A model generated the notes under the pieces. That model was given only the letters and a program-made list of their open reading frames with translations. It had not been told where the DNA came from and ran no database searches. The position numbers were made by a program, and so were the translations under genes. Source: Candidatus Omnitrophota bacterium (lineage in GTDB: Bacteria; Omnitrophota; Gorgyraeia; Zapsychrales; Zapsychraceae). Taken from it: a stretch of DNA of 64,000 nucleotides. This document shows, piece after piece, positions 20,242-32,398 of the stretch. Within the stretch, counting starts at the first letter, position 1; each line of letters begins with the position of its first letter. Location: the NCBI GenBank assembly GCA_016212005.1, contig JACRHP010000009.1:6560-70559 (forward strand), written 5' to 3'.

Positions 20242-22174
20242 CTGGTTGGGTGGTTTTATGCGGTTGCTGCCGCTTCAGGCGGCGCTATGGATCAGCCGTC
20301 TTGTCGGCACGCTGGCCTATTATTTTGATATCCGCCACAAGACAATCGCCTACGCCAATATCAAGGCCGTCTTCGCCGATTCCAGATCTCCCGCTGAAAT
20401 CCGGCGCATGACCAAAGAACTATTTCGGAATTACGCGCAGAATTTTATCGATTTATTCCGCCTGCCGCTGGTAACTCCCCAGAATTTCCAGGACCTGATC
20501 ACCGTTGAAGGTATCGAGAATCTTTCCCTTGGCCTTGGCCAGGGGAAAGGCGCGATCATGCTGGCCATGCACTTCGGCAGCTGGGAACTGGCCAACCTTT
20601 CCTGCGCCATGCTCAAATTGCCTTATAAAGTTATTGTCAAACCGCAGACGCGGTATACCCGTCTGGAAGAGCTTTTAAATTCCTACCGTTCCTGCGGCGG
20701 TTACGTTGTCCTTAACCGGGGGATGGGGACCCGGGACTTCGTGCGGAGCTTGCAGAGCAATGAGGTCATCGGGATGGTGGTCGACCAAGGCGGGCGCGAC
20801 GGGGTCCTCGTACCGTTTTTTGGACGCAACGCTTCTATGTCGGTAGGGGCGATCCGCATGGGGCTTAAATGGGGAGTCCCGATTTGTTTTAGCGTCATCC
20901 ATCGTCAGCCGGGCGGCCGGCACAAAATGATCGTCCATAAACCCCTGGAACTGGTCAACACGGGGCGTACGGAGGAAGACATCGTTGCCAATCTTTCCCA
21001 AATCACGAAGATCATGGAAGATTATATCCGGCGTTATCCCTCGGAGTATATGTGGTTTTATAAAATCTGGAAATATTCCGACCAGACCTCCATCACAATC
21101 TTGAGCGACGAGAAAACAGGACATCTGCGCCAGTCCCAGGCCGTGGCCCGGTTATTGCAAAAAGCCCTGGCCGAACGTGAAATCCGTTCCAGCGTCCAGG
21201 AAGTCCCGGTCCGGTTTAAAGGCGAATTCCACCGGAACCTTTTCGCCGTTTTGAGCCTGTGTTTACCGCCGTTTTTCCATCAAGGGCATCTGGAATATCT
21301 GAAATGGTTTTTAACGGGTGAATCTTACGGCCGGGCAATCCGGGTCAAGTCGGATTTTATTGTCTCCTGCGGTTCATCCGTCGCGGCGGTTAACTATTTT
21401 CTGGCAAAGGACCATGGCGCCAAAAGTGTCGTGGTCCTCAAGCCCGGGATCCTGGGATACAGGAAATTCAACCTGGTGATATTGCCGCGACATGAAATGC
21501 CGCGTCAGGTCCCGGCGGGGCCGCGTTTGGTGGAAACGTTGGGGGCCCCGAACCTGATCACCCCGGAATATCAGCAGGAACAATCGCAGGGACTGCTCAA
21601 GCGATATTCACATTTAAAGAATAACCTGAAGATCAAGATCGGCCTTTTTATCGGCGGCGATTCGAAGGATATCTTTTTAAGCGAACACCTGTTGAAAGTT
21701 TTGGTCCACCAGCTCACCGAGGTGGCGCAGGAGATCAGCGCGGACATCCTGGTGACAACCTCACGGCGTACTCCGGCGGCCGTTGAAGAATTACTGCAAA
21801 AAAGGCTGCGCAAACATCCGCGGTGTCCGCTCCTCGTTATCGCCAATGAAGATGACGTGCCCGAAGCGGCAGGAGGCATGATGGGGTTGTCGGACATCCT
21901 GGTCGTTTCCGGAGACAGCATCTCGATGATCTCGGAAGCGGCCAGTTCCGGGAAGAAGACCATTGTCTTCCTGCCGGAACTGCGCCAGAAAGAGCAGCGG
22001 AAATCGAACAAACATCTGGCATTCATTGAACAGTTAGGGGCGGAAGGTTATCTTTTTGCCAGCAGCATCAAGGACATCGGCCGCGCCGTTTATGATATCG
22101 CCAAGGGCAAGATCCAGACCAAGCCGCTCAACGATAACCTGGTGATACTCGATGCCCTCCGGAAAATTATTTAA
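20201..22174 (+). CDS. Fusion of an LpxL/HtrB-family lipid A acyltransferase (N-terminal) with an ELM1/DUF1022-like domain (C-terminal)
   Basis: N-terminal half shows LpxL-like transmembrane anchor and acyltransferase motifs. The C-terminal roughly 380 aa resemble the Mito_fiss_Elm1 family. The start is uncertain (ATGs at 20186, 20201, 20258) and the first two overlap lpxK. Confidence 0.6.
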   Translation: MPSFSESLIFHSVNWLGGFMRLLPLQAALWISRLVGTLAYYFDIRHKTIAYANIKAVFADSRSPAEIRRMTKELFRNYAQNFIDLFRLPLVTPQNFQDLITVEGIENLSLGLGQGKGAIMLAMHFGSWELANLSCAMLKLPYKVIVKPQTRYTRLEELLNSYRSCGGYVVLNRGMGTRDFVRSLQSNEVIGMVVDQGGRDGVLVPFFGRNASMSVGAIRMGLKWGVPICFSVIHRQPGGRHKMIVHKPLELVNTGRTEEDIVANLSQITKIMEDYIRRYPSEYMWFYKIWKYSDQTSITILSDEKTGHLRQSQAVARLLQKALAEREIRSSVQEVPVRFKGEFHRNLFAVLSLCLPPFFHQGHLEYLKWFLTGESYGRAIRVKSDFIVSCGSSVAAVNYFLAKDHGAKSVVVLKPGILGYRKFNLVILPRHEMPRQVPAGPRLVETLGAPNLITPEYQQEQSQGLLKRYSHLKNNLKIKIGLFIGGDSKDIFLSEHLLKVLVHQLTEVAQEISADILVTTSRRTPAAVEELLQKRLRKHPRCPLLVIANEDDVPEAAGGMMGLSDILVVSGDSISMISEAASSGKKTIVFLPELRQKEQRKSNKHLAFIEQLGAEGYLFASSIKDIGRAVYDIAKGKIQTKPLNDNLVILDALRKII

Positions 22175-22224
22175 AATTTATCGCGTGGAGCCCCACGGGT
22201 TAACACCCGTGGCCCCTCTATTTT
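22162..22224. repeat. 63-bp direct repeat, copy 1, containing a terminator-like hairpin (ccacggg-ttaaca-cccgtgg)
   Basis: Nearly identical to 23469-23531 (2 mismatches). Includes the last codons and stop of the upstream gene. Confidence 0.8.
22193..22224 (+). terminator. Candidate intrinsic terminator (7-bp GC stem followed by ...ctatttt)
   Basis: Hairpin followed by a T-rich tail, seen directly. Confidence 0.4.
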
Positions 22225-22332
22225 CCGGTTCCGCGTTGTTCCGGATGGCTTGAGGGATAGTGATTCGGCGGTGGTTTGTGAGGAACAGATTGTTTGAAAA
22301 ATATATATTTTATGGAGTATAGTTCCTTATAA

Positions 22333-22361
22333 TTGACATATTATATGGAATATGCTAATAT
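22333..22361 (+). promoter_or_regulatory. Near-consensus sigma70 promoter TTGACA-N17-TAATAT placed 7 nt before the ATG at 22368 (leaderless?)
   Basis: Hexamers and spacer length read directly. Confidence 0.5.
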
Positions 22362-22367
22362 TATCCT

Positions 22368-23495
22368 ATGAAAATACCTCGGTTTTATCAGGATTTAACT
22401 CCCTACCTTAAGCCAAACAATGTCCTGGTCATTTATGGGCCGCGGCAGGTCGGCAAGACCACGCTGATTCAGGATTTTCTGGCCACCGTTCCGGGGCGCT
22501 ATAAGCTGGATTCAGGAGATAACATCCGGATACAGACCGTTCTGGGGTCGCAGGATTTTGACGTGATCAAAGAATACGCGCAAGGATATTCTTTGATCGT
22601 TATCGATGAAGCCCAAAGAATTCCCAACGTCGGCCAGGGATTGAAAATTCTGGTGGATCAGCTTCCCGGTATTCAGGTGATCGCGACGGGTTCTTCCTCT
22701 TTTGAACTGGCCGGGCAAGTGGGGGAACCGCTCACCGGGAGAAAAACTACGCTGACATTGTATCCGGTATCGCAGTTGGAATTGCGGGGCCTTTATAACA
22801 CTTATGAATTGAAAAACAACCTGGAGCATTGGCTTGTCTTCGGGGGGTATCCCGAAATCACCGCGGTAGGATCAAAAAGTGAAAAGATCCGCTTGCTGGA
22901 AGAATTAGTGCAATCGTATTTATTCAAGGATATCCTGGAGCTGGAACAGGTCAAGAGTTCCAGGACCCTTATGGACCTGTTACGCCTGTTGGCATTCCAG
23001 GTGGGCAAGGAAGTCTCGTTAAACGAACTGGGACAGCAGGTCGGCGTGGACACCAAGACGGTGGCGCGCTATCTGGACCTCTTTGAAAAGGCGTTTGTCG
23101 TTTACAATCTGCGCGGCTTTAGCCGCAACCTGCGGTCCGAGATCGTGAGGAAAGGCAAGTATTATTTTTATGACAACGGCATCCGCAACGGCGTGATCTC
23201 AAATTTTAACGAGATGGGACTCCGTAACGACGCCGGAGAATTGTGGGAGAATTTCCTGTTTATGGAACGGCTCAAGAAACGGTCTTATCAGAATATATAT
23301 GCCAACAGTTATTTCTGGCGGACGTGGGAACGCCAGGAAATCGATTTGATCGAAGAGCGGGAGGGCAAATTGTTCGCATTTGAATTCAAGTGGGGCAAAG
23401 ACAAAACCAAACTGCCGAAGCAATGGGCCGCGGCCTATCCCGAAGCGTTGTTTGAGGTCATTGACAGAGAAAATTATTTAGAATTTATCGCGTGA
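22368..23495 (+). CDS. AAA+ ATPase with DUF4143 (COG1373-like)
   Basis: Walker A GPRQVGKTT, and Walker B IVIDEAQ. Confidence 0.75.
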   Translation: MKIPRFYQDLTPYLKPNNVLVIYGPRQVGKTTLIQDFLATVPGRYKLDSGDNIRIQTVLGSQDFDVIKEYAQGYSLIVIDEAQRIPNVGQGLKILVDQLPGIQVIATGSSSFELAGQVGEPLTGRKTTLTLYPVSQLELRGLYNTYELKNNLEHWLVFGGYPEITAVGSKSEKIRLLEELVQSYLFKDILELEQVKSSRTLMDLLRLLAFQVGKEVSLNELGQQVGVDTKTVARYLDLFEKAFVVYNLRGFSRNLRSEIVRKGKYYFYDNGIRNGVISNFNEMGLRNDAGELWENFLFMERLKKRSYQNIYANSYFWRTWERQEIDLIEEREGKLFAFEFKWGKDKTKLPKQWAAAYPEALFEVIDRENYLEFIA

Positions 23496-23531
23496 AGCCC
23501 CACGGGTTAACACCCGTGGCCCCTCTATTTT
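23469..23531. repeat. 63-bp direct repeat, copy 2
   Basis: See copy 1. It supplies the last four codons (EFIA*) of the AAA ATPase gene in a different frame. Confidence 0.8.
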
Positions 23532-23644
23532 TAGGACTCCGTCCGTGGGGCGGGATCCTGGCCAGAACGCCTTCATTCACGCCTTTACAGACGTGGCGTT
23601 CTGGCGTCAGGGTAGATTTTTCGGGCCCGGCAAAGATTGCGCGT

Positions 23645-23710
23645 CATTCTTGCCGTCCACGGGACCCACGGCGCCAAGAAAGAGCGGCCGGGTACAACCC
23701 GATCCTGAAT
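23645..23710. repeat. Imperfect direct repeat A (core tgccgtccacgggacccacggcgccaag) upstream of the MNT/HEPN pair
   Basis: About 75-80% identical to 24746-24805. The core is partially palindromic. Confidence 0.55.
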
Positions 23711-23770
23711 TTGACAATCGTGCTGTAATATGTTACAGTAACAACTGTAAATAACGCAGAGCAACAGAAT

Positions 23771-24313
23771 ATGATCAACTTGCGCTCCCAAATCACACAA
23801 AAGGTCCTGGGGTATTTCTACCTCCACGAAGACGCAGAAATGTACATCAATGAAACGGCCCGCCGGCTTGGTCTTGACAGTGGTAATCTCACCAGAAAAT
23901 TCGAGGAGTTGGAAAGCCAGGGGATCCTCAAGAGCCGGTGGAAGGGGGCCCAGCGGTATTATTCGCTTGATAAGGAATTCTCGCTTTATCAGGAATATAA
24001 AAAAATTATCAAAAAAACCGTTGGTTTTGAAGAAATCTTGCGCGCTTCTTTAAAATCACTTGCAGGCATTCAACAAGCTGTTGTCTTCGGCTCTTACGCG
24101 GCTGATAAAATGGATCCCAAAAGCGATATTGATGTATTGGTCATCGGAGATCATGACACGGTGGAACTGCAAAAAGTAATTGCCCGGATCCAGAGATCCG
24201 TTGACCGTGAAATAAATTGTATCACTATGACTGGCAAAGAATACCGGGAAAAACAAAAAAAGGACCCGTTTTTAAGATCCTTAAAAAGTAAACCCCGTCT
24301 TGACCTCTTATGA
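23771..24313 (+). CDS. wHTH-fused minimal nucleotidyltransferase (MNT, Pol-beta superfamily)
   Basis: GSYAADKMDPKSDIDVLVIGD motif with an N-terminal winged-helix region. Confidence 0.8.
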   Translation: MINLRSQITQKVLGYFYLHEDAEMYINETARRLGLDSGNLTRKFEELESQGILKSRWKGAQRYYSLDKEFSLYQEYKKIIKKTVGFEEILRASLKSLAGIQQAVVFGSYAADKMDPKSDIDVLVIGDHDTVELQKVIARIQRSVDREINCITMTGKEYREKQKKDPFLRSLKSKPRLDLL

Positions 24314-24732
24314 CCCGGTTTGAGAAAGAATATTTCCGCCCGTTTTCTTTCAGCGGCAAAGAGATTGACCGTTATTTCCAGAACGCTTTGCGCGATCTTA
24401 AAATTGCCCAGACGGATCCCTACACGGAAGTGCGGTTTACGTATTGTTATCAGGCCTTGATCAAATCCGGCATCGCCTTGATCGCCAAAGTCGGCCAGGT
24501 CAAAGTCAGAAGCGTGGCCGGGCACCATGTCCAGGTATTGACGAAAATGAGCAATTTGTTGAACAACCCGGATATTTTGACCATCGGCAATGCCATGCGC
24601 ATGAAACGTAATCTGGACCTTTACAGCGGCGGCGAATTCATCAGCAAGAAAGAAACCGGCGATTATATCCGTTTTACAAAGCAGGTTATCAATCAAACGG
24701 AGAAAATTATCAAGGCAGGGAAGAAGGAGTAA
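24310..24732 (+). CDS. HEPN domain protein, partner of the upstream MNT
   Basis: ATGA overlap with the MNT gene; 140 aa, helical, with an R..H-type motif. Confidence 0.7.
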   Translation: MTRFEKEYFRPFSFSGKEIDRYFQNALRDLKIAQTDPYTEVRFTYCYQALIKSGIALIAKVGQVKVRSVAGHHVQVLTKMSNLLNNPDILTIGNAMRMKRNLDLYSGGEFISKKETGDYIRFTKQVINQTEKIIKAGKKE

Positions 24733-24745
24733 ACATCGCGCGGTG

Positions 24746-24805
24746 TTTCTGCCATCCACGGGATCCGCAGCGCCAAAAGAGAATGGCTGGATATTATTGC
24801 GGGGG
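24746..24805. repeat. Imperfect direct repeat B (tgccatccacgggatccgcagcgccaaaag)
   Basis: Pairs with 23645-23710. Confidence 0.55.
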
Positions 24806-24914
24806 GAGTAAAGGACGTTGCCGCCGTTAATGAAGGATTGACAGAGGAGAATCATGCCGAGAATATTCGATAACATTGAACAGCCGCTTTTGCCGTCGTT
24901 GAAAGGTTTTTATT

Positions 24915-25133
24915 ATGCCTCCTGAAGCATTCTCCAGAGTTTTGATCGACGAAGCCCTGAAATCCTCCGGCTGGGATCTGGCAAAGAATGCTCATTTCGA
25001 ACTTGCCGGATCGCAAGAGGCTCGATGATATTGTTTTCGACACGATCGGCCTCACCGCCGCCGAACGCAAAGAAGTCTACTGGTCTGTCTGTGAACTCGT
25101 CAAAAACCGCCTCGACCAAGCAGGAAGTGTGTG
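24915..25133 (+). pseudogene. Internally deleted remnant of a restriction enzyme gene (HsdR/Res-like N-terminus joined out of frame to a type IIG-like C-terminal motif)
   Basis: N-terminus reads IDEALKSSGWD. A frameshifted continuation reads LDDIVFDTIGLTAAERKEVYWSV, the typical C-terminal motif of type IIG/MTase enzymes. Confidence 0.4.
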
Positions 25134-25147
25134 AAGCGAGTAATATT

Positions 25148-26083
25148 ATGAAGGAACAGAAACCCAAAAAACGGCACCATTATATACCTGTCTTTTATTT
25201 GAACGGTTTTACGGATAAAAACGGATGTCTATATGTGTACGATAAAGACACTAAGCCGGTGTTTGAATCCTCTCCCGAGGGTATCGCATACGAGAACCAC
25301 TATTTTTCTTTTATGACGCCACATGGCGAAAGGGATTCGGAGACCGTGGAAAATGCTATCATGTTATGGGAGGGAGAATTTGCAAGAATAGTAAAAAAAA
25401 TCCATGATCATGAGGATTTGACGGATGATGATTATATGGTTTTTTCTTTTTTCGTTGCATCTATGATGATAAGAGTTCCCAACATGAGGGATAACATACG
25501 GAAAGCGACCGGCGAGACGATAAAACGTATGAATGTCTTCATGTCGTCCCACAAAGAAAATTTTGGACGAATGATAAAGAAGTATGAAAGCAATACAGGA
25601 AGGCAAATTGGCATGGATGTTGAAGAACTGCGTCAATGGATGAATAATCCGGACAATTATGACATGACCGTTGACAAGGAATATGCTACTGGAATGGCTT
25701 TATGCTTGCTTGAAGATCTTGCGAAGGGGTTTTTAAATATGAAATGGGCTTTTTTAAAGGCAACGGACGACTATAAATATGTGACAGGTGACAATCCGTT
25801 GCGATACATTGACCCGACACATAACCCGCGCTCATTTTACGGAGTAGGGCTCGCCAACGAAAACATAGAAGTTTCCTTGCCCTTATCCAAAGAGATTTGT
25901 GCTTTCGGTTCATGGAAATATAGAGAAGGTCATATACAAGCCAATAGTCAGCATGTAAAACATTTAAATAAAATGACCGTTAGCGCATCGGTAAAGTTTG
26001 TATTCGCCGATACCAAGTCAGAGATTATTGACCAATTTGTAAAAAAGTATAAAGATAGCCATCCTGTAATGGTCGTTGGTTAA
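25148..26083 (+). CDS. DUF4238 family protein
   Basis: HHYIPVFYLNGF N-terminal signature in an AT-rich gene. The track ORF extends upstream, but the ATG at 25148 fits the family N-terminus. Confidence 0.65.
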   Translation: MKEQKPKKRHHYIPVFYLNGFTDKNGCLYVYDKDTKPVFESSPEGIAYENHYFSFMTPHGERDSETVENAIMLWEGEFARIVKKIHDHEDLTDDDYMVFSFFVASMMIRVPNMRDNIRKATGETIKRMNVFMSSHKENFGRMIKKYESNTGRQIGMDVEELRQWMNNPDNYDMTVDKEYATGMALCLLEDLAKGFLNMKWAFLKATDDYKYVTGDNPLRYIDPTHNPRSFYGVGLANENIEVSLPLSKEICAFGSWKYREGHIQANSQHVKHLNKMTVSASVKFVFADTKSEIIDQFVKKYKDSHPVMVVG

Positions 26084-26121
26084 GGTAAAGGCGTAATTCG
26101 GGATACAAATGCAGGATGCAG

Positions 26122-26274
26122 GTGACAGTCACTCCGGCGGGGACAGACATGGCGAGCCTCGTCGCTCGTGTGACCGAAATCCGCGCCATGCAAGCCGACC
26201 AATCCGCCAGCCGCAAGCGTCTGGACGACCTGTTTCAGTCAATGTTACACCGTGCTTTTGAGGGGGAGTTATGA
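26122..26274 (+). pseudogene. hsdS: C-terminal remnant of a type I restriction specificity subunit (HsdS)
   Basis: ...SRKRLDDLFQSMLHRAFEGEL* is the conserved HsdS C-terminal helix, with no upstream target-recognition domain. Confidence 0.55.
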
Positions 26275-26434
26275 CGAAGGAGGAATTAAGGTTGCGTCAC
26301 ACGTCCCCCGACGTGTCCTATAAAAAGGTTATGCAGCGAAAATTTCAAGAGCTTCAGCCGGTGAGTTTAATGGATTTGGGAGTGATTTAGATTGAACCTA
26401 ATGTCTATTTTAAATTAGCCTTGGTGAGGATAAT

Positions 26435-28450
26435 ATGATAAAGGCGTTTGTCGGTCACAGTTTTGACTCGGAAGACGAGTCAATAATTACTGCATTCAAA
26501 AAGATGTTTAATAGCTTAAGAACGAGCATGGCTTTTGAGTGGGAAGATGCTGAAGCTACACAGATTAAACCATTGTCAAAAAAGGTTCCGCAAAAAATGG
26601 CGGATAAGAATTTGTTTATTGGTATTTTTACACGAAAACACATAGAACTTGAACTGAAGCAATTAATTCCGTCCAAGCCTTGGAATAAGAATAAATATGT
26701 TATTAGAAGGGCCGATTGTGCTTATGGAACATCGTACTGGATTACTCAGGAAAGTGGATATGCTATAGCTCAGGGCATGGTAACTCTTTTTTTAATTGAA
26801 AAGGGCGTGAGAGAATTAAAGGGATTGCACGCCGATATGGAACACATCTATTTTGAGCGAGGCAAAGAAAGCGAATGTTTTGTTAAGCTAAACGAAGCTT
26901 TAGGTCAGTTTCTTAGCGAGAGCAAAATCAATAACGGGAAAAAAGGGAGCAATATTCCTCCCAAACAATCAGAAAAAGATATTGCTACGGCGGCGAGCGA
27001 AAATATTGCTGTGCAAGAGGCCACAGAAGCTGATGAAGCGCAAGAAGTAAAAAAGCATAAAGAAAAAAAGGATGATAAGTATTATTTTAGGGAAATGTAT
27101 TTCGCGCTTCTTGAGAAAGAAAATGCAAAATTCGAGCAACTAAAAAATGAGGTTTTTGAGAAATATAAAGCCGACGAAGATGGCACGATAGAGTGGCAAG
27201 CTAAAGTATTATCTCTGGAAAGCCTTTTGACGCAGAAGGATGTTTTAAATGACTTGAAGGAGCTTCAAAAAAAGAAGCCTGAAAATGCATTGATAGCTTA
27301 CTATATTGGCGAAGAATATGAAAAATATAAGAATTATGAACAAGCAATCGACGAATACCTAAAATCTGCAAGACTGGAAAAACAAGTTGGATCTAAATTG
27401 CATAGGGTTAGCCTGGCCGCCCATGCCTATGTAAAAAATGGTCAAAAAAACGAAGCGATAAATATTTTATTAAAAGAATTACACGAGGATTCGCCTGATG
27501 ACGAAAAGCGTTTGATATATGGATATTTAGCTGATATTGCGAAGGCCATGGAGGACAATGAATTATTTACAGTTTTCGCTGAAAAAGCATTGGCGATAAA
27601 TCCGAGTAATAGCTCGTTAAGGTTCAGTCTTGCTTATAAGTATTCCAATATGGACAAAGATGTGTTGGCTTTATATCACTACAATATTTTAGCCGCTAAC
27701 AGCCCAGATTCATCGAATTGTAATAACCTCGGTGTAGCATATGCCAGTTTGGGAATGCCTAGCAAGGCGGTAGAATCATATATCAGGGCAAGTGAACTAG
27801 GCGCGACAATATCAAGAGCTAATCTTGCGCAAAAGCTACTTAACGAAGGATTCATTGATTATGCGAACAATCAGTTAAAAGAGGCTATGAAATCAGAGGA
27901 TTATGAAAAAGATAATGTGGGAAGGGCATTGCTAAGGATAGATTCAATTCGCGAAGAAGAGAACAAAAAAGAAAAAGAGGCATTAGAGGGTATTGCGGGG
28001 GAAAGGCGTTTTAAGCAAGATTATGCAGATGCATATTCAATTGGTTTTATTGTTAGCGAAGCATTAAGCGGTGAATGGAATAGCAAGCATGGCAAAATTG
28101 AAATACATTTAGAATCCGGGAACAATCTATATGGTAAAAAGGAAGAAACGGTCGAGGGAAACAATTTGTATCTGGCTGCGATGTTAGCCGGATCGTCCGT
28201 TGGCACAACACCAGAAAAGCGAATCGTTAAATTTATAAGAACATTCGAAGGCAAAATAATTAAAAACAGGACTTTTGAATATAAACTTAAGATTGAAAGA
28301 CAGCCACCGTATAGCACTCTATTAGCACAGGATCTTACGATAACCGAATTTTCTGGCTACGGGATCATAAGCAAAGAGATGAATTTGATAAAGGTAATGG
28401 AGCTTGACAAGGATAAAAAGCAAACTTTCTTAGAAATGATAAAAACATAA
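26435..28450 (+). CDS. Large TIR-like domain + coiled-coil + TPR-repeat protein (candidate defense effector)
   Basis: N-terminus has FVGHSFDSEDE and SYWITQESGYA motifs (TIR-like S.W...E). The middle has several TPR-like repeats (AYYIGEEYEKYKNYEQAIDEY; LGVAYASLGMPSKAVESY). No Walker A motif is visible. The gene is AT-rich. Confidence 0.55.
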   Translation: MIKAFVGHSFDSEDESIITAFKKMFNSLRTSMAFEWEDAEATQIKPLSKKVPQKMADKNLFIGIFTRKHIELELKQLIPSKPWNKNKYVIRRADCAYGTSYWITQESGYAIAQGMVTLFLIEKGVRELKGLHADMEHIYFERGKESECFVKLNEALGQFLSESKINNGKKGSNIPPKQSEKDIATAASENIAVQEATEADEAQEVKKHKEKKDDKYYFREMYFALLEKENAKFEQLKNEVFEKYKADEDGTIEWQAKVLSLESLLTQKDVLNDLKELQKKKPENALIAYYIGEEYEKYKNYEQAIDEYLKSARLEKQVGSKLHRVSLAAHAYVKNGQKNEAINILLKELHEDSPDDEKRLIYGYLADIAKAMEDNELFTVFAEKALAINPSNSSLRFSLAYKYSNMDKDVLALYHYNILAANSPDSSNCNNLGVAYASLGMPSKAVESYIRASELGATISRANLAQKLLNEGFIDYANNQLKEAMKSEDYEKDNVGRALLRIDSIREEENKKEKEALEGIAGERRFKQDYADAYSIGFIVSEALSGEWNSKHGKIEIHLESGNNLYGKKEETVEGNNLYLAAMLAGSSVGTTPEKRIVKFIRTFEGKIIKNRTFEYKLKIERQPPYSTLLAQDLTITEFSGYGIISKEMNLIKVMELDKDKKQTFLEMIKT

Positions 28451-28574
28451 GCCGGTTCTGATAATAAACGTCAGGTACAAATTTACAAATTTAGGGGACA
28501 GGTAAGGTATGTTGATGGACAAATTCCCAGACACATTCCATGCCGGAAATCAAGGAAATCAACGTGCCAGGCAC

Positions 28575-28650
28575 TTTTGGACACCTGCTTACGAACGTCC
28601 GCGGCGCGGCCGCGATCTTTCTTGACACGCTTTTAGGGGAAGAGCTTGCC
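28575..28650. repeat. 76-bp direct repeat, copy 1, upstream of the first Bro-N gene
   Basis: About 90% identical to 29621-29697. Confidence 0.7.
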
Positions 28651-28651
28651 G

Positions 28652-28720
28652 GGGGGCAGGCCTGCCTGCCCTGTCTGCCCTGACTGCCGTCAGGCAGGCG
28701 ACAGGCAAGCGGCAGGCAGG
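28652..28720. other. Long imperfect GC-rich palindrome (cctgcctgccctgtctgccctgac...gtcaggcagg...caggcagg)
   Basis: Inverted repeat seen directly, immediately upstream of the Bro-N gene. Confidence 0.5.
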
Positions 28721-28771
28721 TTGAAGGCCGCGAAGAGGCCGCAGGGCGAGGGAAAGGAAGAGTTTAGTCTT

Positions 28772-29605
28772 ATGAAACAATCACAATCAATCGCGCTTTT
28801 TCATCAGAACAAGGTCCGCCGCCATTGGGACGAGGGCAGGGAGCTCTGGTATTTTTCGATTGTGGATGTGGTGCAAATATTGACCGGCTCCACGATCCCA
28901 AGACGATATTGGAGCGATCTTAAAACAAAGCTTCAAGCGGAAGGAAGTGAAGTGTACGAGAAAATCGTACAGTTGAAAATGACCGCTCCGGACGGGAAAC
29001 AAAGAGAAACAGACTGTTTATCCACTGAAGATCTGCTCCGCGTCATCCAGTCCATCCCATCCCCCAAAGCCGAGCCTTTTAAGTTGTGGCTGGCGAAAGT
29101 GGGCTATGAGCGCATCGAAGAAACCGAGGACCCGGAGCTCGCGATGGAACGGGCGATGAAAACCTACCTCAAGAAAGGGTATACCAAAGAATGGATCAAC
29201 CAGCGGCTTAAAAGCATTGAAGTGCGCAAGGAATTGACGGATGAGTGGCAGGAACGGGGCATGAAGGAGGGTTTGGAATACGCGATATTGACCGACGAAA
29301 TCACGAAAGCATGGGCTGACAGGAGCGTCAAAGATTATAAGAAGCTCAAAGGCCTGAAGAAGCAAAACCTGCGCGACAATATGACCAACCTTGAGCTGGT
29401 TTTGAATATGCTGGCTGAGGCCTCCACGGCTGAGATTTCCAGGAAGAAACAGCCGAAAGGTTTGCCGGCCAATAAACAGGTTGCGCGTCAGGGCGGCGCG
29501 GCGGCGGGAAAAGCGCGGGCCGAGATCGAAAAACAAACCGGCGAAAGCGTCATCACCGGCGCGCATGCCCGCGCGCTTCCGGTTGAGAAAACAAAGAAAA
29601 ATTAA
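28772..29605 (+). CDS. Bro-N domain protein (phage antirepressor/BRO-like)
   Basis: WYFSIVDVVQIL...LKMTAPDGKQRETDCLSTEDLLRVIQSIPSPKAEPFKLWLAKV matches the Bro-N pattern. The track ORF includes the GC palindrome; the ATG at 28772 is preferred. Confidence 0.7.
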   Translation: MKQSQSIALFHQNKVRRHWDEGRELWYFSIVDVVQILTGSTIPRRYWSDLKTKLQAEGSEVYEKIVQLKMTAPDGKQRETDCLSTEDLLRVIQSIPSPKAEPFKLWLAKVGYERIEETEDPELAMERAMKTYLKKGYTKEWINQRLKSIEVRKELTDEWQERGMKEGLEYAILTDEITKAWADRSVKDYKKLKGLKKQNLRDNMTNLELVLNMLAEASTAEISRKKQPKGLPANKQVARQGGAAAGKARAEIEKQTGESVITGAHARALPVEKTKKN

Positions 29606-29620
29606 CGAAAATTAAAGGCG

Positions 29621-29697
29621 CTTTGGGACACCTGTTCACGAACGTTCGCGGCGCGGCCGCGCTCTTTCCTGACATGCTTTTGGGAGAAGAGCTTGCC
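29621..29697. repeat. 76-bp direct repeat, copy 2
   Basis: See 28575-28650. Confidence 0.7.
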
Positions 29698-29873
29698 AAC
29701 ATGAGAAGAATAGGTCCCCCGGGCGGGGATTGGCAAGCCGCCCTGAAGATCGCCCTATTCCTTCGCGCAAGCGCTGGAAAATTTCTTGACTACCATACAT
29801 ATGTGTTGTACAAAAAATCAATCCCCCAATTCCCCCTTGTTAACCATTTTTAAAAAAGAAAGGGGAAATATCC

Positions 29874-30170
29874 ATGTCCACTGAAACGTACTTAACCAAA
29901 ATTGCAGTTTTCAAAGGAAGAGAGGTCAGGAGGGTTCTTATTGAGGGGAAATGGTGGTTTTCCGTGGTTGATGTTGTTTCCGTATTGACGGACAGTGACA
30001 ATCCGCGCGATTATTGGTACAAGATGAAGATCAGAGAAAAAGACGAGGCGGATGTTCAACTGTCGACAATTTGTCGACAGTTCAAATTGACCGCCCCGGA
30101 TGGCAAGTTGAGAAAGACGAACTGTGCCAACATGAGAAGAATAGGCGCCAGTCACCCGGGCAAGTTTTGA
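29874..30170 (+). CDS. Truncated Bro-N paralog (98 aa)
   Basis: N-terminal two-thirds parallels the upstream Bro-N. Homology ends at a 20-bp repeat (gccaacatgagaagaatagg) that is also present at 29695-29714. Confidence 0.55.
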   Translation: MSTETYLTKIAVFKGREVRRVLIEGKWWFSVVDVVSVLTDSDNPRDYWYKMKIREKDEADVQLSTICRQFKLTAPDGKLRKTNCANMRRIGASHPGKF

Positions 30171-30295
30171 GGCCAAAAGGCGAAAAGAAGGGGCGGCGGT
30201 ATGGGTTTTAAGATATCGGACATTTATTGGACAAATAAATCCGTGACAGGGACTAATTTTTGAAGGCCGCGAAGGCCACATAAGTTTGCAAGCCA

Positions 30296-32398
30296 ATGAA
30301 AATTTTACAAATATTGCCTGAATTAAATGTCGGCGGGGTGGAGACCGGGACGGTCGACCTCGCCGGTTATCTGGCGCGGCAGGGACACCAGTCCATCGTC
30401 GTTTCCAACGGCGGAGAGCTTGTCGCCCGGCTTGAGGCCTCGGGCACGAAGCATTACACGCTGCCGGTGCACAAGAAATCTTTATGGACGATGTTCTGGT
30501 CTATCAAGGCGTTGCACAAGATTATCCTTGAGGAAAACGTCGACGTGGTCCATGCCCGCTCGCGCGTGCCCGCCTGGATCGCGTATTTCGCCTGCCGCAA
30601 GACAAAGGCGGCGCTGGTGACGACCTGCCACGGTTATTACGGCAGCCGGGTCTTCAGCCAGGTCATGGGCTGGCCGAAACTGGTCATCGTCCCCAGTGAA
30701 GTCATCGGCCGCCACATGATCGAGCATTTTCGTGTTTCTCCCAGCGGCATCCGGTATATCCCGCGCAGTGTCGATCTCGAACGATTCCGTGTGCCACGAG
30801 CCGATACGGCAGGCAAGTCCTTTTTTACTGTCGTTATTGTCGGGCGCCTGACGCCGCTCAAAGGGCACACCTTTTTTTTGCGGTCCATGGCGAAGGTCAT
30901 CCGCGCGATGCCCAATATCCGCGTCTGGATTGTCGGCGACGCGCCTGCCGGCAAACAGGCGTATAAAGAAGAGCTGCAGCTCTTGATCAAGAGGCTGGGC
31001 ATCCAGGGGCAAGTCGAGTTCCTGGGCAACCGCCGCGACGTGCCGCAGCTGCTGGCGCAGGCGGACGTGCTTGTCCTTTCAACCATCACCCAGGAGGCTT
31101 TCGGCCGGGTGATCCTCGAGGCCCAGGCCGTGGGCGTGCCGGTCGTGGCGACCAAAGTCGGAGGGGTCGTGGATATTATTGAGGACGGCCGCACCGGCCT
31201 CTTGGTCCCGGCGAAAGATATCGACGCCATGGCCAAGGCTGTGACGCGTGTTCTGAACGATAAAAAAACCGCCGCGCAAATGGCTGTGGCTGCGCGGGAA
31301 AAACTCGAGAGAGAATTCACGCTGGAACAGATGGTGTCCCGGACGATCCGGGTCTACGAGGAACTGATGCAGTCCATCAATATCCTGGTCATCAAGATCA
31401 GTTCGATGGGGGACGTGGTCCTCGTCACGGCGGCGTTAAAAGCGCTGCGCGCCCAATATCCTCACGCGAAAATCTATTGTCTGGTGGGCAAAGATTCCAG
31501 AAAAGTCTTGCAAAACTGCCCCCATCTCGACGGCATCATTGTGGATGACCCCAAGAATAAATATAAAGGGTGGTGGCGGACGTTTCTTCTTTCGCATAAG
31601 CTGCGTAAATACCGTTTTGATAAAATCGTGGATTTTCAGAACAACCGCCGCAGCCATCTTTTGGCCTTTTTGAGTTTCTCCAGGGAAAGTTACGGTTACG
31701 ATAACGGGAAATGGGGTAATCTGCTGACGCATCCTTTGAAAATATACCGCAATGATATCCCCGCCGTTGAACATCAATTTCAGCTGTTGAAGGAAATGGG
31801 CATCGCCATGCCGCCGGACGCCGCCCTGGAGCTGTGGCCGTCGGCCAAAGACCGGCAGTATATCCAGGAGTTGCTGGAATCCGAATGGCTGGGCAACATC
31901 CCGCGCATGGTCGGGATCAACATCGCCGCGTCGGAAAAATGGCAGACGAAAAACTGGCCGGTGGAACATATCGCGCGTTTATGCGATCTGCTGGCGGCCA
32001 GGAACATCCGCGTCCTTGTTACCGGCATGGAAAAGGACAGGCCTGTTGTCCAGCGGCTTATGGAAAACACAAGATCCAAACCGGCTGTTTTTGTCGGGCG
32101 CACGGACATCCTGCAACTGGCCGCCCTGATTGGACGCTGCAGCGTCTATATCACGCCGGATTCGGCGCCGCTTCACGTGGCGGCCGCCATGAAAACACCG
32201 CTAGTCGCCTTCTTCGGCCCGACGGATTCGCGCAGACACCGGCCGCCGGCGCGGCATATGGTTGTCCTCGAAAAGAAACTTGCCTGCGCGCCCTGTTACA
32301 GCCCGCGGTGTCTTGTCATGACTCACGCCTGTATGCGTGAGATAACTCCCGATGAAGTCCTCCAGAAGGTTGAAGAACTGATGGGCGCAAAAGTATGA
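30296..32398 (+). CDS. Bifunctional glycosyltransferase: GT4 domain (N-terminal) fused to a GT9 heptosyltransferase-like domain (C-terminal)
   Basis: N-terminal MKILQILPELNVGGVETGTVDLA...EAFGRVILEAQAVGVPVVAT (GT4). C-terminal INILVIKISSMGDVVLVTAALKAL...APLHVAAAMKTPLVAFFGPTD (GT9). Confidence 0.75.
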   Translation: MKILQILPELNVGGVETGTVDLAGYLARQGHQSIVVSNGGELVARLEASGTKHYTLPVHKKSLWTMFWSIKALHKIILEENVDVVHARSRVPAWIAYFACRKTKAALVTTCHGYYGSRVFSQVMGWPKLVIVPSEVIGRHMIEHFRVSPSGIRYIPRSVDLERFRVPRADTAGKSFFTVVIVGRLTPLKGHTFFLRSMAKVIRAMPNIRVWIVGDAPAGKQAYKEELQLLIKRLGIQGQVEFLGNRRDVPQLLAQADVLVLSTITQEAFGRVILEAQAVGVPVVATKVGGVVDIIEDGRTGLLVPAKDIDAMAKAVTRVLNDKKTAAQMAVAAREKLEREFTLEQMVSRTIRVYEELMQSINILVIKISSMGDVVLVTAALKALRAQYPHAKIYCLVGKDSRKVLQNCPHLDGIIVDDPKNKYKGWWRTFLLSHKLRKYRFDKIVDFQNNRRSHLLAFLSFSRESYGYDNGKWGNLLTHPLKIYRNDIPAVEHQFQLLKEMGIAMPPDAALELWPSAKDRQYIQELLESEWLGNIPRMVGINIAASEKWQTKNWPVEHIARLCDLLAARNIRVLVTGMEKDRPVVQRLMENTRSKPAVFVGRTDILQLAALIGRCSVYITPDSAPLHVAAAMKTPLVAFFGPTDSRRHRPPARHMVVLEKKLACAPCYSPRCLVMTHACMREITPDEVLQKVEELMGAKV

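What the first reader, a model, noticed from the sequence alone, without database searches (positions are those of the whole stretch)
24915..26274. DUF4238 gene embedded between fragments of decayed restriction-modification genes
Upstream is a roughly 70-aa ORF with an HsdR/Res-like N-terminus (IDEALKSSGWD). It continues out of frame into the type IIG-like C-terminal motif (DIVFDTIGLTAAERKEVYW). This implies deletion of nearly the whole enzyme. Downstream is only the C-terminal helix of HsdS (LFQSMLHRAFEGEL*). DUF4238 (HHYIPVFYLNGF start) therefore occupies what was a restriction-modification locus. DUF4238 is an uncharacterised family, and its placement in a defense context is informative.
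Basis: partly seen in the sequence, partly recalled or inferred. Interest (0 to 1): 0.55.

Follow-up and report, generated by a model that had tools for sequence, protein, structure and literature searches.

The report
DUF4238 defence gene inserted into restriction-system scar
An intact copy of a known single-gene anti-phage gene (DUF4238) sits in a small defence island of a Candidatus Omnitrophica genome, where it arrived as a 1.1-kb insertion into the leftover stub of an already collapsed type I restriction system; this is ordinary defence-island turnover.

Summary
The history it inferred is wrong in one key point, and the "uncharacterised" premise is out of date.

- **The gene.** 25148-26083 (+) is a full-length DUF4238 gene under strong purifying selection. 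It matches the PADLOC model DUF4238-Pers. DUF4238 is a single-gene anti-T7 system described by Rousset et al. 2022; its mechanism is unknown.
- **The two outer fragments.** The HsdR-like start (24915-25013) and the HsdS C-terminus (26146-26274) are two halves of one 80-aa fusion ORF. That ORF is uninterrupted in a syntenic metagenome contig (L102). It is the scar of a collapsed type I operon.
- **The insertion.** Window 25014-26145 (1,132 bp) is inserted into that scar. It carries the last 43 codons of a type IIG-like methyltransferase, then DUF4238, then 62 nt of unknown origin. The left junction has a 12-nt microhomology.
- **The methyltransferase tail.** It is a hitch-hiker, not the other end of the HsdR-like fragment. 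Its parent gene pairs with an HKD-SNF2 helicase, occurs in more than 200 species, and is usually followed by variable defence genes.
A probable helicase N-terminal remnant lies at 24855-24905.

Verdict: a new member of a known kind, of modest interest.

The parts
24838..24867 (+). Promoter-like site, TTGACA-18 nt-AATATT (10 of 12 matches). It lies upstream of the remnants and of DUF4238.
   Evidence: This is a consensus match only; function is inferred.
24855..24905 (+). Probable remnant of the first 17 codons of an HKD(PLD)-SNF2 'helicase-related protein': MPRIFDNIEQPLLPSLK.
   Evidence: It is 76% identical to residues 1-17 of Anabaena WP_015338145, which sits next to a DNA methyltransferase. 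All four plasmid hits are helicase-related or PLD proteins; a match starting at residue 1 was verified only for the Anabaena hit. E-values are only 0.6-2, so this part is probable, not proven.
24915..25013 (+). HsdR N-terminal remnant. It is the left half of the 80-aa HsdR-N::HsdS-C fusion ORF (the type I operon scar).
   Evidence: 95.6% nucleotide identity to L102 206-318. P0099 is 88% identical over residues 1-34. Longer relatives hit Pfam HSDR_N.
25002..25013 (.). Left junction microhomology CTTGCCGGATCG. It is shared by the scar (L102 has CTTACCGGATCG) and by the methyltransferase codons L-P-D-R.
   Evidence: Alignments to full-length methyltransferase genes begin at 25002/25003, and the L102 alignment ends at 25013.
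25014..26145 (.). The 1,132-bp segment that is absent from the empty-site contig L102 (the insertion).
   Evidence: In L102...CCGGATCG|GACATG... is contiguous. In the window these two strings end at 25013 and begin at 26146.
25003..25134 (+). Last 43 codons plus the stop codon of a type IIG-like DNA methyltransferase (the 'tail'). It is not attached to any methyltransferase body here.
   Evidence: Parent genes score as PADLOC REase_MTase_IIG.
25148..26083 (+). Intact DUF4238 gene, 311 aa, GC 0.39.
   Evidence: Pfam E 2.3e-41. PADLOC DUF4238-Pers E 4.9e-17. It is 100% identical to an NCBI Omnitrophica protein. dN/dS is 0.07-0.09 against orthologues. All family-invariant residues are present.
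26084..26145 (.). 62 nt of unknown origin at the right end of the insertion, GC 0.55.
   Evidence: No match in any fetched locus. It is not a decayed second tail copy.
26146..26274 (+). HsdS C-terminal remnant, the right half of the fusion ORF.
   Evidence: PADLOC Specificity_I E 6.9e-6. 90.7% nucleotide identity to L102 347-486. Relatives carry the HsdS motif PPLPLQKEFAARVTEIRAMQ....
26271..26298 (+). First codons (MTKEELRLR) of a gene that overlapped the hsdS stop codon (ATGA). They are conserved with L102, and homology ends at 26298.

Best explanation
**What it is (shown).**
- 25148-26083 is an intact, selected member of the DUF4238 family.
- It has no conserved partner gene.
- It sits in an 8-kb defence island between a lipid A acyltransferase-ELM1 gene and glycosyltransferase genes of a Candidatus Omnitrophica genome.

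**How it got there (shown by comparison with an empty site).**
1. A type I operon, probably in the order hsdR...hsdS, had already collapsed to an 80-aa in-frame HsdR-N::HsdS-C mini-ORF.
2. A 1,132-bp piece then inserted into that mini-ORF. The piece is the last 43 codons of a type IIG-like methyltransferase, a 13-nt spacer, the DUF4238 ORF and 62 nt of unknown origin.
3. The left junction lies in a 12-nt microhomology.

**Inferred.**
- In the donor genome, DUF4238 sat directly after the methyltransferase stop codon. In relatives that position holds variable defence genes.
- The piece was copied out with the gene's 3' end and joined by illegitimate, microhomology-mediated recombination.
- It is now probably transcribed from the promoter-like site at 24838-24867.

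**How DUF4238 works (my best guess, probability about 0.25-0.3).**
- It is a self-contained sensor-effector enzyme that acts without partners.
- The family-wide invariant polar residues are H10, H11, E68, E75, R109 and D215 (motifs K-x-x-HHY(I/V)P and G-D-N-P). They suggest a metal-dependent hydrolase site.
- I propose it attacks nucleic acid or a nucleotide during infection, in the manner of abortive infection.
- No fold or sequence relative of known function supports this.

The flanking remnants have no role in its action.
For: **Identity of the gene**
- Pfam PF14022 matches over its full length.
- PADLOC DUF4238-Pers matches at E 4.9e-17 over residues 8-291.
- A PHROG family also matches.
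- The only fold match is an uncharacterised protein of the P2-like phage Smp131.
- A single DUF4238 protein protects against T7 (PMC9122126).

**Selection and independence**
- dN/dS is 0.07-0.09.
- There is no conserved neighbour in 5 annotated contexts or among 75 flanking genes of 55 loci.

**Insertion**
- L102 matches window 22010-22189, 24901-25013 and 26159-26298, and lacks 25014-26145.
- The window and P0099 share the non-native junction 'G(S/T)DM'. The scar therefore predates the insertion.
- GC is 0.39 for the ORF and 0.52-0.58 for the tail, the 62 nt and both remnants.

**Tail and its parent gene**
- The tail occurs in 212 species genomes at 81-100% amino-acid identity.
- About half of the 80 kept loci have full-length genes of 1,150-1,290 aa, often preceded by a 1,040-1,140-aa helicase gene.
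- The parent scores as REase_MTase_IIG and its partner as HKD+Snf2/DrmD-like.
- Genes straight after the tail are SIR2_2, AAA_15/21, OLD, Schlafen/AlbA_2, DUF3800, Mrr_N, HigB, Y1 transposases and others.
- A tail remnant 91.9% identical in nucleotides sits next to different cargo in L183.

**Invariant residues**
Against: - No other sampled locus shows the proposed donor arrangement 'methyltransferase tail then DUF4238'. It is absent from 80 tail loci and 80 DUF4238 loci.
- The right junction is unresolved. There is no clear target duplication, and the 62-nt end has no match.
- The empty site is a single 1.8-kb metagenome contig.
- Nothing supports a specific biochemical activity. Foldseek against PDB found no match with E below 0.5. 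A profile search of PDB sequences gave only noise.
- Activity against phage has been shown only for a distant E. coli relative.
Confidence: 0.72

Rival explanations
1. A single type IIG-like enzyme decayed in place, leaving its N-terminus (24915...) and C-terminus (...25134). An HsdS gene decayed downstream, and DUF4238 took the place of these genes.
For: The two fragments are adjacent and overlap out of frame. Both belong to restriction-type proteins.
Against: - The N-terminal fragment is contiguous with the HsdS end in L102/P0099 and P0107.
- None of the roughly 40 full-length parents of the tail starts with the HsdR-like motif.
- A search with the two fragments joined found no protein carrying both.
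Confidence: 0.04
2. The window shows the older state. L102 lost the 1,132-bp segment by precise excision, so tail plus DUF4238 is an excisable cassette.
For: - L102 equals the window minus exactly 25014-26145.
- Tail copies flank cargo in L065 and L067 at about 93% nucleotide identity, which would allow looping out.
Against: - There is no second tail copy or repeat at the right end of the window's segment.
- There is no recombinase in the segment.
- The in-frame scar P0107 has another junction and no insert, so scars exist independently.
Confidence: 0.1
3. The short remnant ORFs are kept because they are useful. They could supply expression signals for the cargo gene, or serve as homology arms that let neighbouring genomes swap cargo.
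For: - The remnant segments are more conserved between the window and L102 (95.6% and 90.7%) than the adjacent housekeeping gene end (82.8%). Fisher p = 0.0009 and 0.049.
- There are two independent in-frame scars, both 80 aa long.
- Isolated tail remnants occur on many long contigs.
- The DUF4238 start codon lies 13 nt after the tail stop codon.
Against: - Tail conservation is at the protein level (55% of third codon positions differ). That fits inheritance from functional parents rather than a DNA site.
- The search index seems to favour short proteins, which inflates the count of remnants.
- No test of expression was possible.
Confidence: 0.12
4. DUF4238 here is not an anti-phage gene. It would be a passenger with some other role.
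For: - Some relatives lie beside housekeeping genes such as hisB or glutamine amidotransferases.
- Identity to the tested E. coli type is low. The only link is the HMM match at E 4.9e-17.
Against: - The close relatives whose surroundings were annotated sit beside type III or helicase-methyltransferase systems, orphan methyltransferases, serine recombinases, Fic, Schlafen-type genes and toxin-antitoxin genes.
- The window neighbours all match PADLOC candidate defence families: PDC-S01, PDC-M05A/B and PDC-S13.
Confidence: 0.08

Closest known systems
DUF4238 single-gene anti-phage system (PADLOC model 'DUF4238-Pers'; Rousset et al. 2022, PMC9122126; listed from my memory as Rst_DUF4238 in DefenseFinder)
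   Same: It has the same Pfam family over its full length and matches the PADLOC model over residues 8-291. It has the same stand-alone architecture and size (about 300 aa). The only fold relative is in a P2-like phage, which is the element type where the system was first found.
   Different: The host is a Candidatus Omnitrophica chromosome, not an E. coli P2 prophage hotspot. Sequence similarity to the E. coli type is remote. Activity is untested. Here the gene carries a stretch of a methyltransferase gene on its 5' side.
Defence genes embedded in multi-gene systems such as Hma, type I restriction-modification, BREX and DISARM (Payne et al. 2024, bioRxiv 10.1101/2024.01.29.577857); TgvAB inside the V. 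cholerae type I operon (PMC11411939); PrrC in EcoprrI (from my own knowledge)
   Same: In relatives, the slot directly after the type IIG-like methyltransferase of a helicase-methyltransferase pair holds varied defence genes. This resembles Hma, where 62.7% of systems contain embedded genes.
   Different: In the window the host system is gone. Only its last 43 codons travelled with the cargo, and the cargo now lies in the scar of a different (type I) system. Whether the parent pair is Hma proper was not settled. The helicases hit HmaA at E 3e-24 and 4e-22, while the best-scoring models were DrmD and HKD+Snf2 for L087 (E 4e-33 and 2e-31) and HKD+Snf2 then DrmD for L025 (E 9e-54 and 4e-39).
Decayed restriction-modification loci and defence-island turnover in general
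   Same: Gene-end remnants of HsdR, HsdS, a methyltransferase and probably a helicase lie among intact defence-type genes.
   Different: An empty-site relative allows the order of events and the junction to be read to the nucleotide. That is uncommon for uncultured lineages.

Membership tests
DUF4238 (PF14022) / DUF4238 single-gene defence system | Full-length match to the Pfam model above its gathering score | tested here: met
   142.5 bits against a cut-off of 27; residues 9-291 cover profile positions 1-281 of 281.
DUF4238 (PF14022) / DUF4238 single-gene defence system | Match to the defence-system HMM (PADLOC DUF4238-Pers) | tested here: met
   E 4.9e-17; residues 8-291 cover profile positions 5-292 of 309.
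DUF4238 (PF14022) / DUF4238 single-gene defence system | Family-invariant residues present (HHY(I/V)P, E68, E75, R109, GDNP) | tested here: met
   Invariant in 46 close relatives and in 40 diverse relatives down to about 21% identity.
DUF4238 (PF14022) / DUF4238 single-gene defence system | Acts alone, with no conserved partner gene | tested here: met
   Neighbours differ in every context examined. No family recurs beyond closely related contigs. Independence of action itself is inferred.
DUF4238 (PF14022) / DUF4238 single-gene defence system | Protects cells against phage | not testable with these tools
   Shown only for an E. coli homologue against T7 (PMC9122126).
Type I restriction-modification system | HsdR with an N-terminal PD-(D/E)xK nuclease domain | tested here: inconclusive
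   The window keeps only about 33 residues, which end before the catalytic motif. On its own this stretch has no Pfam hit. Longer relatives with the same start carry GRADYVL...VLEAK and hit HSDR_N at E 1.7e-8.
Type I restriction-modification system | HsdS C-terminal conserved helix | tested here: met
   Specificity_I E 6.9e-6 at the end of the profile. Relatives are named S subunit.
Type I restriction-modification system | Complete hsdR, hsdM and hsdS genes | tested here: not met
   There is no HsdM and no full-length subunit in 22000-30300. The locus is a scar, not a system.
Type IIG-like methyltransferase with HKD-SNF2 helicase partner (Hma-like or DISARM class 1-like pair) | C-terminal tail homologous to the family | tested here: met
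   Parents score as REase_MTase_IIG at E 1e-105 and 1e-44.
Type IIG-like methyltransferase with HKD-SNF2 helicase partner (Hma-like or DISARM class 1-like pair) | Methyltransferase catalytic body and helicase present in the window | tested here: not met
   Only 43 codons of the methyltransferase remain, plus perhaps 17 codons of a helicase.
Integron-type cassette array | attC sites between cassettes and an integron integrase | not testable with these tools
   All island genes are co-oriented, and repeats of 63 and 82 nt bracket two of them. No attC model was available. Rfam found nothing. No integrase was seen in the island.

The most novel reading that the evidence does not exclude
The 43-aa tail of this methyltransferase family is extremely conserved and spans many bacterial and archaeal phyla. 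Other gene-end scars, such as the 80-aa HsdR::HsdS mini-ORF, are also conserved. Both could serve as portable junction modules. Cargo defence genes would then be copied out together with the 3' end of the host gene and re-inserted by short homology. Under this reading, scars and tails form a shared scaffold on which single-gene defences such as DUF4238 move between distant genomes without a dedicated recombinase.
Probability: 0.12. Interest if true: 0.6.

Novelty: new member of a known kind. Interest (0 to 1): 0.3.

Why it matters
- **Reach of the family.** It extends a validated but mechanistically unknown single-gene defence family to the uncultured phylum Omnitrophota.
- **Testable residues.** It gives a clean list of family-invariant residues for mutagenesis: H10, H11, E68, E75, R109 and D215.
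- **A worked example of turnover.** An empty-site relative shows a type I operon collapsing to an 80-aa scar. A cargo gene then arrives with a piece of its former host gene, joined at a 12-nt microhomology.
- **A caution for annotators.** Adjacent gene fragments need not come from one gene.
- **Limits.** None of this changes what is known about how restriction systems or DUF4238 work.

Tried and rejected
1. **One enzyme with both ends.** I joined the HsdR-like start and the tail into one query. No protein carried both.
2. **Decayed second tail copy at 26084-26145** (the circle-integration model). The best local alignment score was 17, against 18.9 +/- 2.1 for shuffles, so I rejected it.
3. **A DNA-level recombination site in the tail.** I rejected this because conservation is at the protein level: 72% nucleotide against 82% amino-acid identity, with 55% of third codon positions differing.
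4. **A donor locus with tail followed by DUF4238.** None was found among 80 tail loci and 80 DUF4238 loci.
5. **Fold clues for DUF4238.**
   - The AlphaFold2 model is good (pLDDT 87).
   - Foldseek against PDB gave nothing with E below 0.5.
   - BFVD gave only one uncharacterised phage protein.
   - A PDB sequence profile search gave noise.
6. **Exact-sequence look-ups of the window's DUF4238 protein** found no contig.
7. **tRNA genes or Rfam families marking an integration site.** None were found.
8. **ORF-only mobility of DUF4238.** Nucleotide homology to relatives stops at the ORF ends. With dS of 0.6-1.3, neutral flanks would be unalignable anyway. So only 'different contexts' can be claimed.
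9. **The apparent excess of short tail ORFs in the protein database.** This is partly an artefact. In genomes, many 'short' ORFs are split or frameshifted full-length genes.
Full report
**1. What is in the sequence**

The quoted strings are all present.
- ORF 24915-25028 (+) reads MPPEAFSRVLIDEALKSSGWDLAKNAHFELAGSQEAR.
- ORF 24988-25134 (+), in a different frame, reads MLISNLPDRKRLDDIVFDTIGLTAAERKEVYWSVCELVKNRLDQAGSV.
- The DUF4238 gene runs 25148-26083 (+), 311 aa. This is the start used by NCBI for a 100% identical protein of a 'Candidatus Omnitrophica bacterium' MAG.
- ORF 26116-26274 (+) ends RKRLDDLFQSMLHRAFEGEL.

GC content is 0.39 for the DUF4238 ORF. It is 0.52-0.58 for the short fragments around it and 0.52 for the window as a whole.

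**2. Identity of each piece**

*DUF4238 gene*
- Pfam PF14022 matches at E 2.3e-41 over the full model.
- PADLOC 'DUF4238-Pers' matches at E 4.9e-17.
- PHROG 29785 also matches.

*Methyltransferase tail*
- tblastn hits the extreme C-termini of large DNA methyltransferases in Thermus oshimai and Thermococcus profundus plasmids (E 1e-7 and 6e-6). In both plasmids a helicase-related gene lies nearby; in Thermus oshimai it directly follows the methyltransferase.
- A scan of one genome per species found 212 loci encoding the same 43-48 residues. The best 80 are 81-100% identical and span many bacterial and archaeal phyla.
- About half of the 80 kept loci are full-length genes of 1,150-1,290 aa, often preceded by a 1,040-1,140-aa helicase gene.
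- PADLOC scores two such pairs as REase_MTase_IIG (E 1e-105 and 1e-44) and HKD+Snf2/DrmD-like.
- Conservation is at the protein level: 82% amino-acid against 72% nucleotide identity, with 55% of third codon positions differing.

*HsdS end*
- PADLOC Specificity_I matches at E 6.9e-6, at the very end of the profiles.
- Relatives at 73-88% identity carry the HsdS motif PPLPLQKEFAARVTEIRAMQ. Three of them are named S subunit by JGI.

*HsdR-like start*
- On its own it has no family hit and only weak plasmid hits.
- A full phmmer scan of 1.84 billion proteins found ten hits. Eight are short proteins that match at or near their N-terminal start.
- The longer of these continue with GRADYVL...VLEAK, the PD-(D/E)xK motif. 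They hit Pfam HSDR_N at E 1.7e-8.

*Helicase start (24855-24905)*
- It is 76% identical to residues 1-17 of an Anabaena HKD-helicase encoded next to a methyltransferase.
- All four hits are proteins of this kind.
- E-values are only 0.6-2, so I rate this fragment probable.

**3. The key result: an empty site**

Two of the phmmer hits are 80-aa proteins that begin with the HsdR-like start and end with the HsdS end:
- P0099: MPPEAFSRVLIDEALKSSGWDMAKNVHFELTGSDMKVLLQEEFAARVGEIRVMQADQSASRKRLDDLFQSMLHRAFEEEL.
- P0107: the same ends, but a different junction.

The contig encoding P0099 (L102, 1,782 bp, Hainich groundwater) is syntenic with the window.

| L102 | Window | Identity | Content |
|---|---|---|---|
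| 1-180 | 22010-22189 | 82.8% | 3' end of the lipid A acyltransferase-ELM1 gene |
| 206-318 | 24901-25013 | 95.6% | HsdR-like start |
| 347-486 | 26159-26298 | 90.7% | HsdS end and 24 nt beyond |

In L102 the sequence ...CCGGATCG|GACATG... is continuous. In the window these two strings end at 25013 and begin at 26146. So 25014-26145 (1,132 bp) is extra in the window. It holds the tail, a 13-nt spacer, DUF4238 and 62 nt of unknown origin.

Both sequences share the non-native junction G(S/T)DM between the HsdR and HsdS parts. The operon collapse therefore came first and the insertion later.

Alignments to full-length methyltransferase genes start at 25002/25003, and the L102 alignment ends at 25013. 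The left junction therefore lies in a 12-nt microhomology: CTTGCCGGATCG in the window and CTTACCGGATCG in L102. The right junction shows no convincing duplication.

**4.

- The HsdR-like start and the type IIG-like tail do not belong to one enzyme. The start belongs with the HsdS end, and the tail came in with DUF4238.
- A search with the two pieces joined found no protein carrying both.
- None of the full-length parents of the tail begins with the HsdR-like motif.

**5. Where the tail came from**

- In 66 relatives, the gene that starts close to the tail's stop codon is highly variable and rich in defence types. Examples are SIR2_2, AAA_15/AAA_21, OLD-TOPRIM, Schlafen/AlbA_2, DUF3800, Mrr_N, HigB, Fic and nSTAND3, plus Y1 transposases.
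- This is the 'embedding' already described for Hma, type I, BREX and DISARM loci.
- In the window the DUF4238 start codon lies 13 nt after the tail's stop codon. The simplest reading is that DUF4238 occupied this slot in a donor genome and was copied out with the last 43 codons of the methyltransferase.
- Isolated tail remnants next to other cargo are common:
  - SIR2_2 and DUF3800 in L018.
  - DUF3800 in L016.
  - An AlbA_2 gene and a DUF1016 gene in L183, whose tail is 91.9% identical in nucleotides to the window's.
- Four loci have a second, partial tail copy downstream of the cargo. L065 and L067 are about 93% identical to the first copy; L028 and L084 are 82% and 77%.
- The exact donor arrangement (tail followed by DUF4238) was not found elsewhere.

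**6. DUF4238 itself**

- Relatives of 41-90% identity occur in Omnitrophota, Nitrospirota, Chlamydiae and Woesearchaeota.
- Their neighbours include:
  - a serine recombinase with an HKD-helicase/methyltransferase pair;
  - RadC with orphan methyltransferases;
  - a type III system;
  - a large DEAD helicase;
  - Schlafen and Fic genes.
- No partner gene is conserved.
- dN/dS against three orthologues is 0.07-0.09.
- Nucleotide homology to relatives stops at the ORF ends. With dS of 0.6-1.3 this shows only that the contexts differ.
- The AlphaFold2 model is confident (pLDDT 87, pTM 0.83), yet it has no PDB match. Its only viral match is an uncharacterised protein of the P2-like phage Smp131.
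- Residues invariant across 40 diverse members are H10, H11, Y12, P14, F21, E68, E75, R109, D215, P217 and P245.
- The literature reports only that a single DUF4238 protein gives strong resistance to T7, with molecular function unknown (PMC9122126).
- My mechanistic proposal is a partner-independent, metal-dependent hydrolase acting as sensor and effector. It rests on the pattern of invariant polar residues alone, and I give it about 0.25-0.3.

**7. Setting**

The island spans about 22175-30295 and holds, all on the + strand:
- an AAA_14/DUF4143 ATPase (PADLOC PDC-S01);
- a nucleotidyltransferase/HEPN-like pair (PDC-M05A/B);
- the remnants and DUF4238;
- a low-GC 671-aa TPR protein;
- one complete and one truncated Bro-N/DinD-like gene (PDC-S13).

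Relative to L102, 22190-24900 is also extra. A promoter-like site at 24838-24867 could drive transcription through the remnants into DUF4238; this is an inference. No tRNA gene or Rfam family is present.

**8. Verdict**

- The gene is a new member of a known defence family, and embedding of defence genes in restriction-type loci is an established pattern.
- The empty-site reconstruction and the hitch-hiking tail are useful details but not surprising to a specialist.

Noticed in passing
window 22162-22224 and 23469-23531: A 63-nt direct repeat (97% identical) brackets the AAA_14/DUF4143 ATPase gene (22368-23495). It consists of the last 13 nt of the lipid A acyltransferase-ELM1 gene plus the palindrome CCACGGGTTAACACCCGTGG. 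This looks like a cassette inserted with duplication of its target. The whole 22190-24900 stretch is absent from L102.
   Followed up: partly
window 28569-28650 and 29616-29697; L183 2473-2541: An 82-nt repeat (88% identical) brackets the Bro-N/DinD-like gene. It recurs at 85-88% identity after a DUF1016 gene in another contig. In the + frame it reads GTFGHLLTNVRGAAA.F.D.LLGEE, with synonymous differences between copies. It may be a coding remnant or a small gene.
   Followed up: partly
window 30236-30266; L183 1385-1415: A 31-nt element (93.5% identical) is shared between the window and L183. In the window it lies just upstream of the glycosyltransferase gene. In L183 it lies between the truncated methyltransferase tail and the DUF1016 start codon.
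   Followed up: no
loci L022-L101 (genome scan); window 25003-25134: The last 43 residues of one type IIG-like methyltransferase family are 81-100% identical in more than 200 species of bacteria and archaea, although third codon positions differ freely. Remnants often begin just upstream of 'DRK'. Why this peptide is so constrained is unexplained.
   Followed up: partly
L065 10816-10983; L067 12398-12499; L084 10831-10911; L028 3243-3419: A second, partial copy of the methyltransferase tail lies 0.7-2.2 kb downstream of the first. A Y1 transposase (L065) or a 743-aa AAA ATPase (L067) sits between the copies. Copy identity is 93%, 93%, 77% and 82%.
   Followed up: partly
window 24901-25013 and 26159-26298 compared with 22010-22189: Between the window and L102, the restriction-system scar is more conserved (95.6% and 90.7%) than the adjacent housekeeping gene end (82.8%). 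Fisher p = 0.0009 and 0.049. This could reflect recent exchange of island DNA or constraint on the scar.
   Followed up: partly
proteins P0099 and P0107: These are two HsdR-N::HsdS-C fusion ORFs with different junctions. Both are in frame and both are exactly 80 aa long.
   Followed up: no
window 26435-28450: A low-GC (0.37) 671-aa protein has TPR repeats in its second half. Its N-terminal region of about 230 aa matches no Pfam, NCBIfam or PADLOC family. It matches PHROG 31809 at E 2.5e-14. It sits in the slot after the scar, where L102 carries a 249-aa protein and a DUF5677 protein instead.
   Followed up: partly
window 23771-24732: An HTH-nucleotidyltransferase gene (23771-24313) overlaps a 140-aa gene (24310-24732) by 4 nt. 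They match the PADLOC candidate pair PDC-M05A/B, a MNT/HEPN-like toxin-antitoxin arrangement.
   Followed up: no
window 28646-29605 and 29874-30170: There is one complete and one truncated Bro-N/DinD-like gene (PADLOC PDC-S13, E 6e-130 and 5e-29). This appears to be a tandem duplication with decay of the second copy.
   Followed up: no
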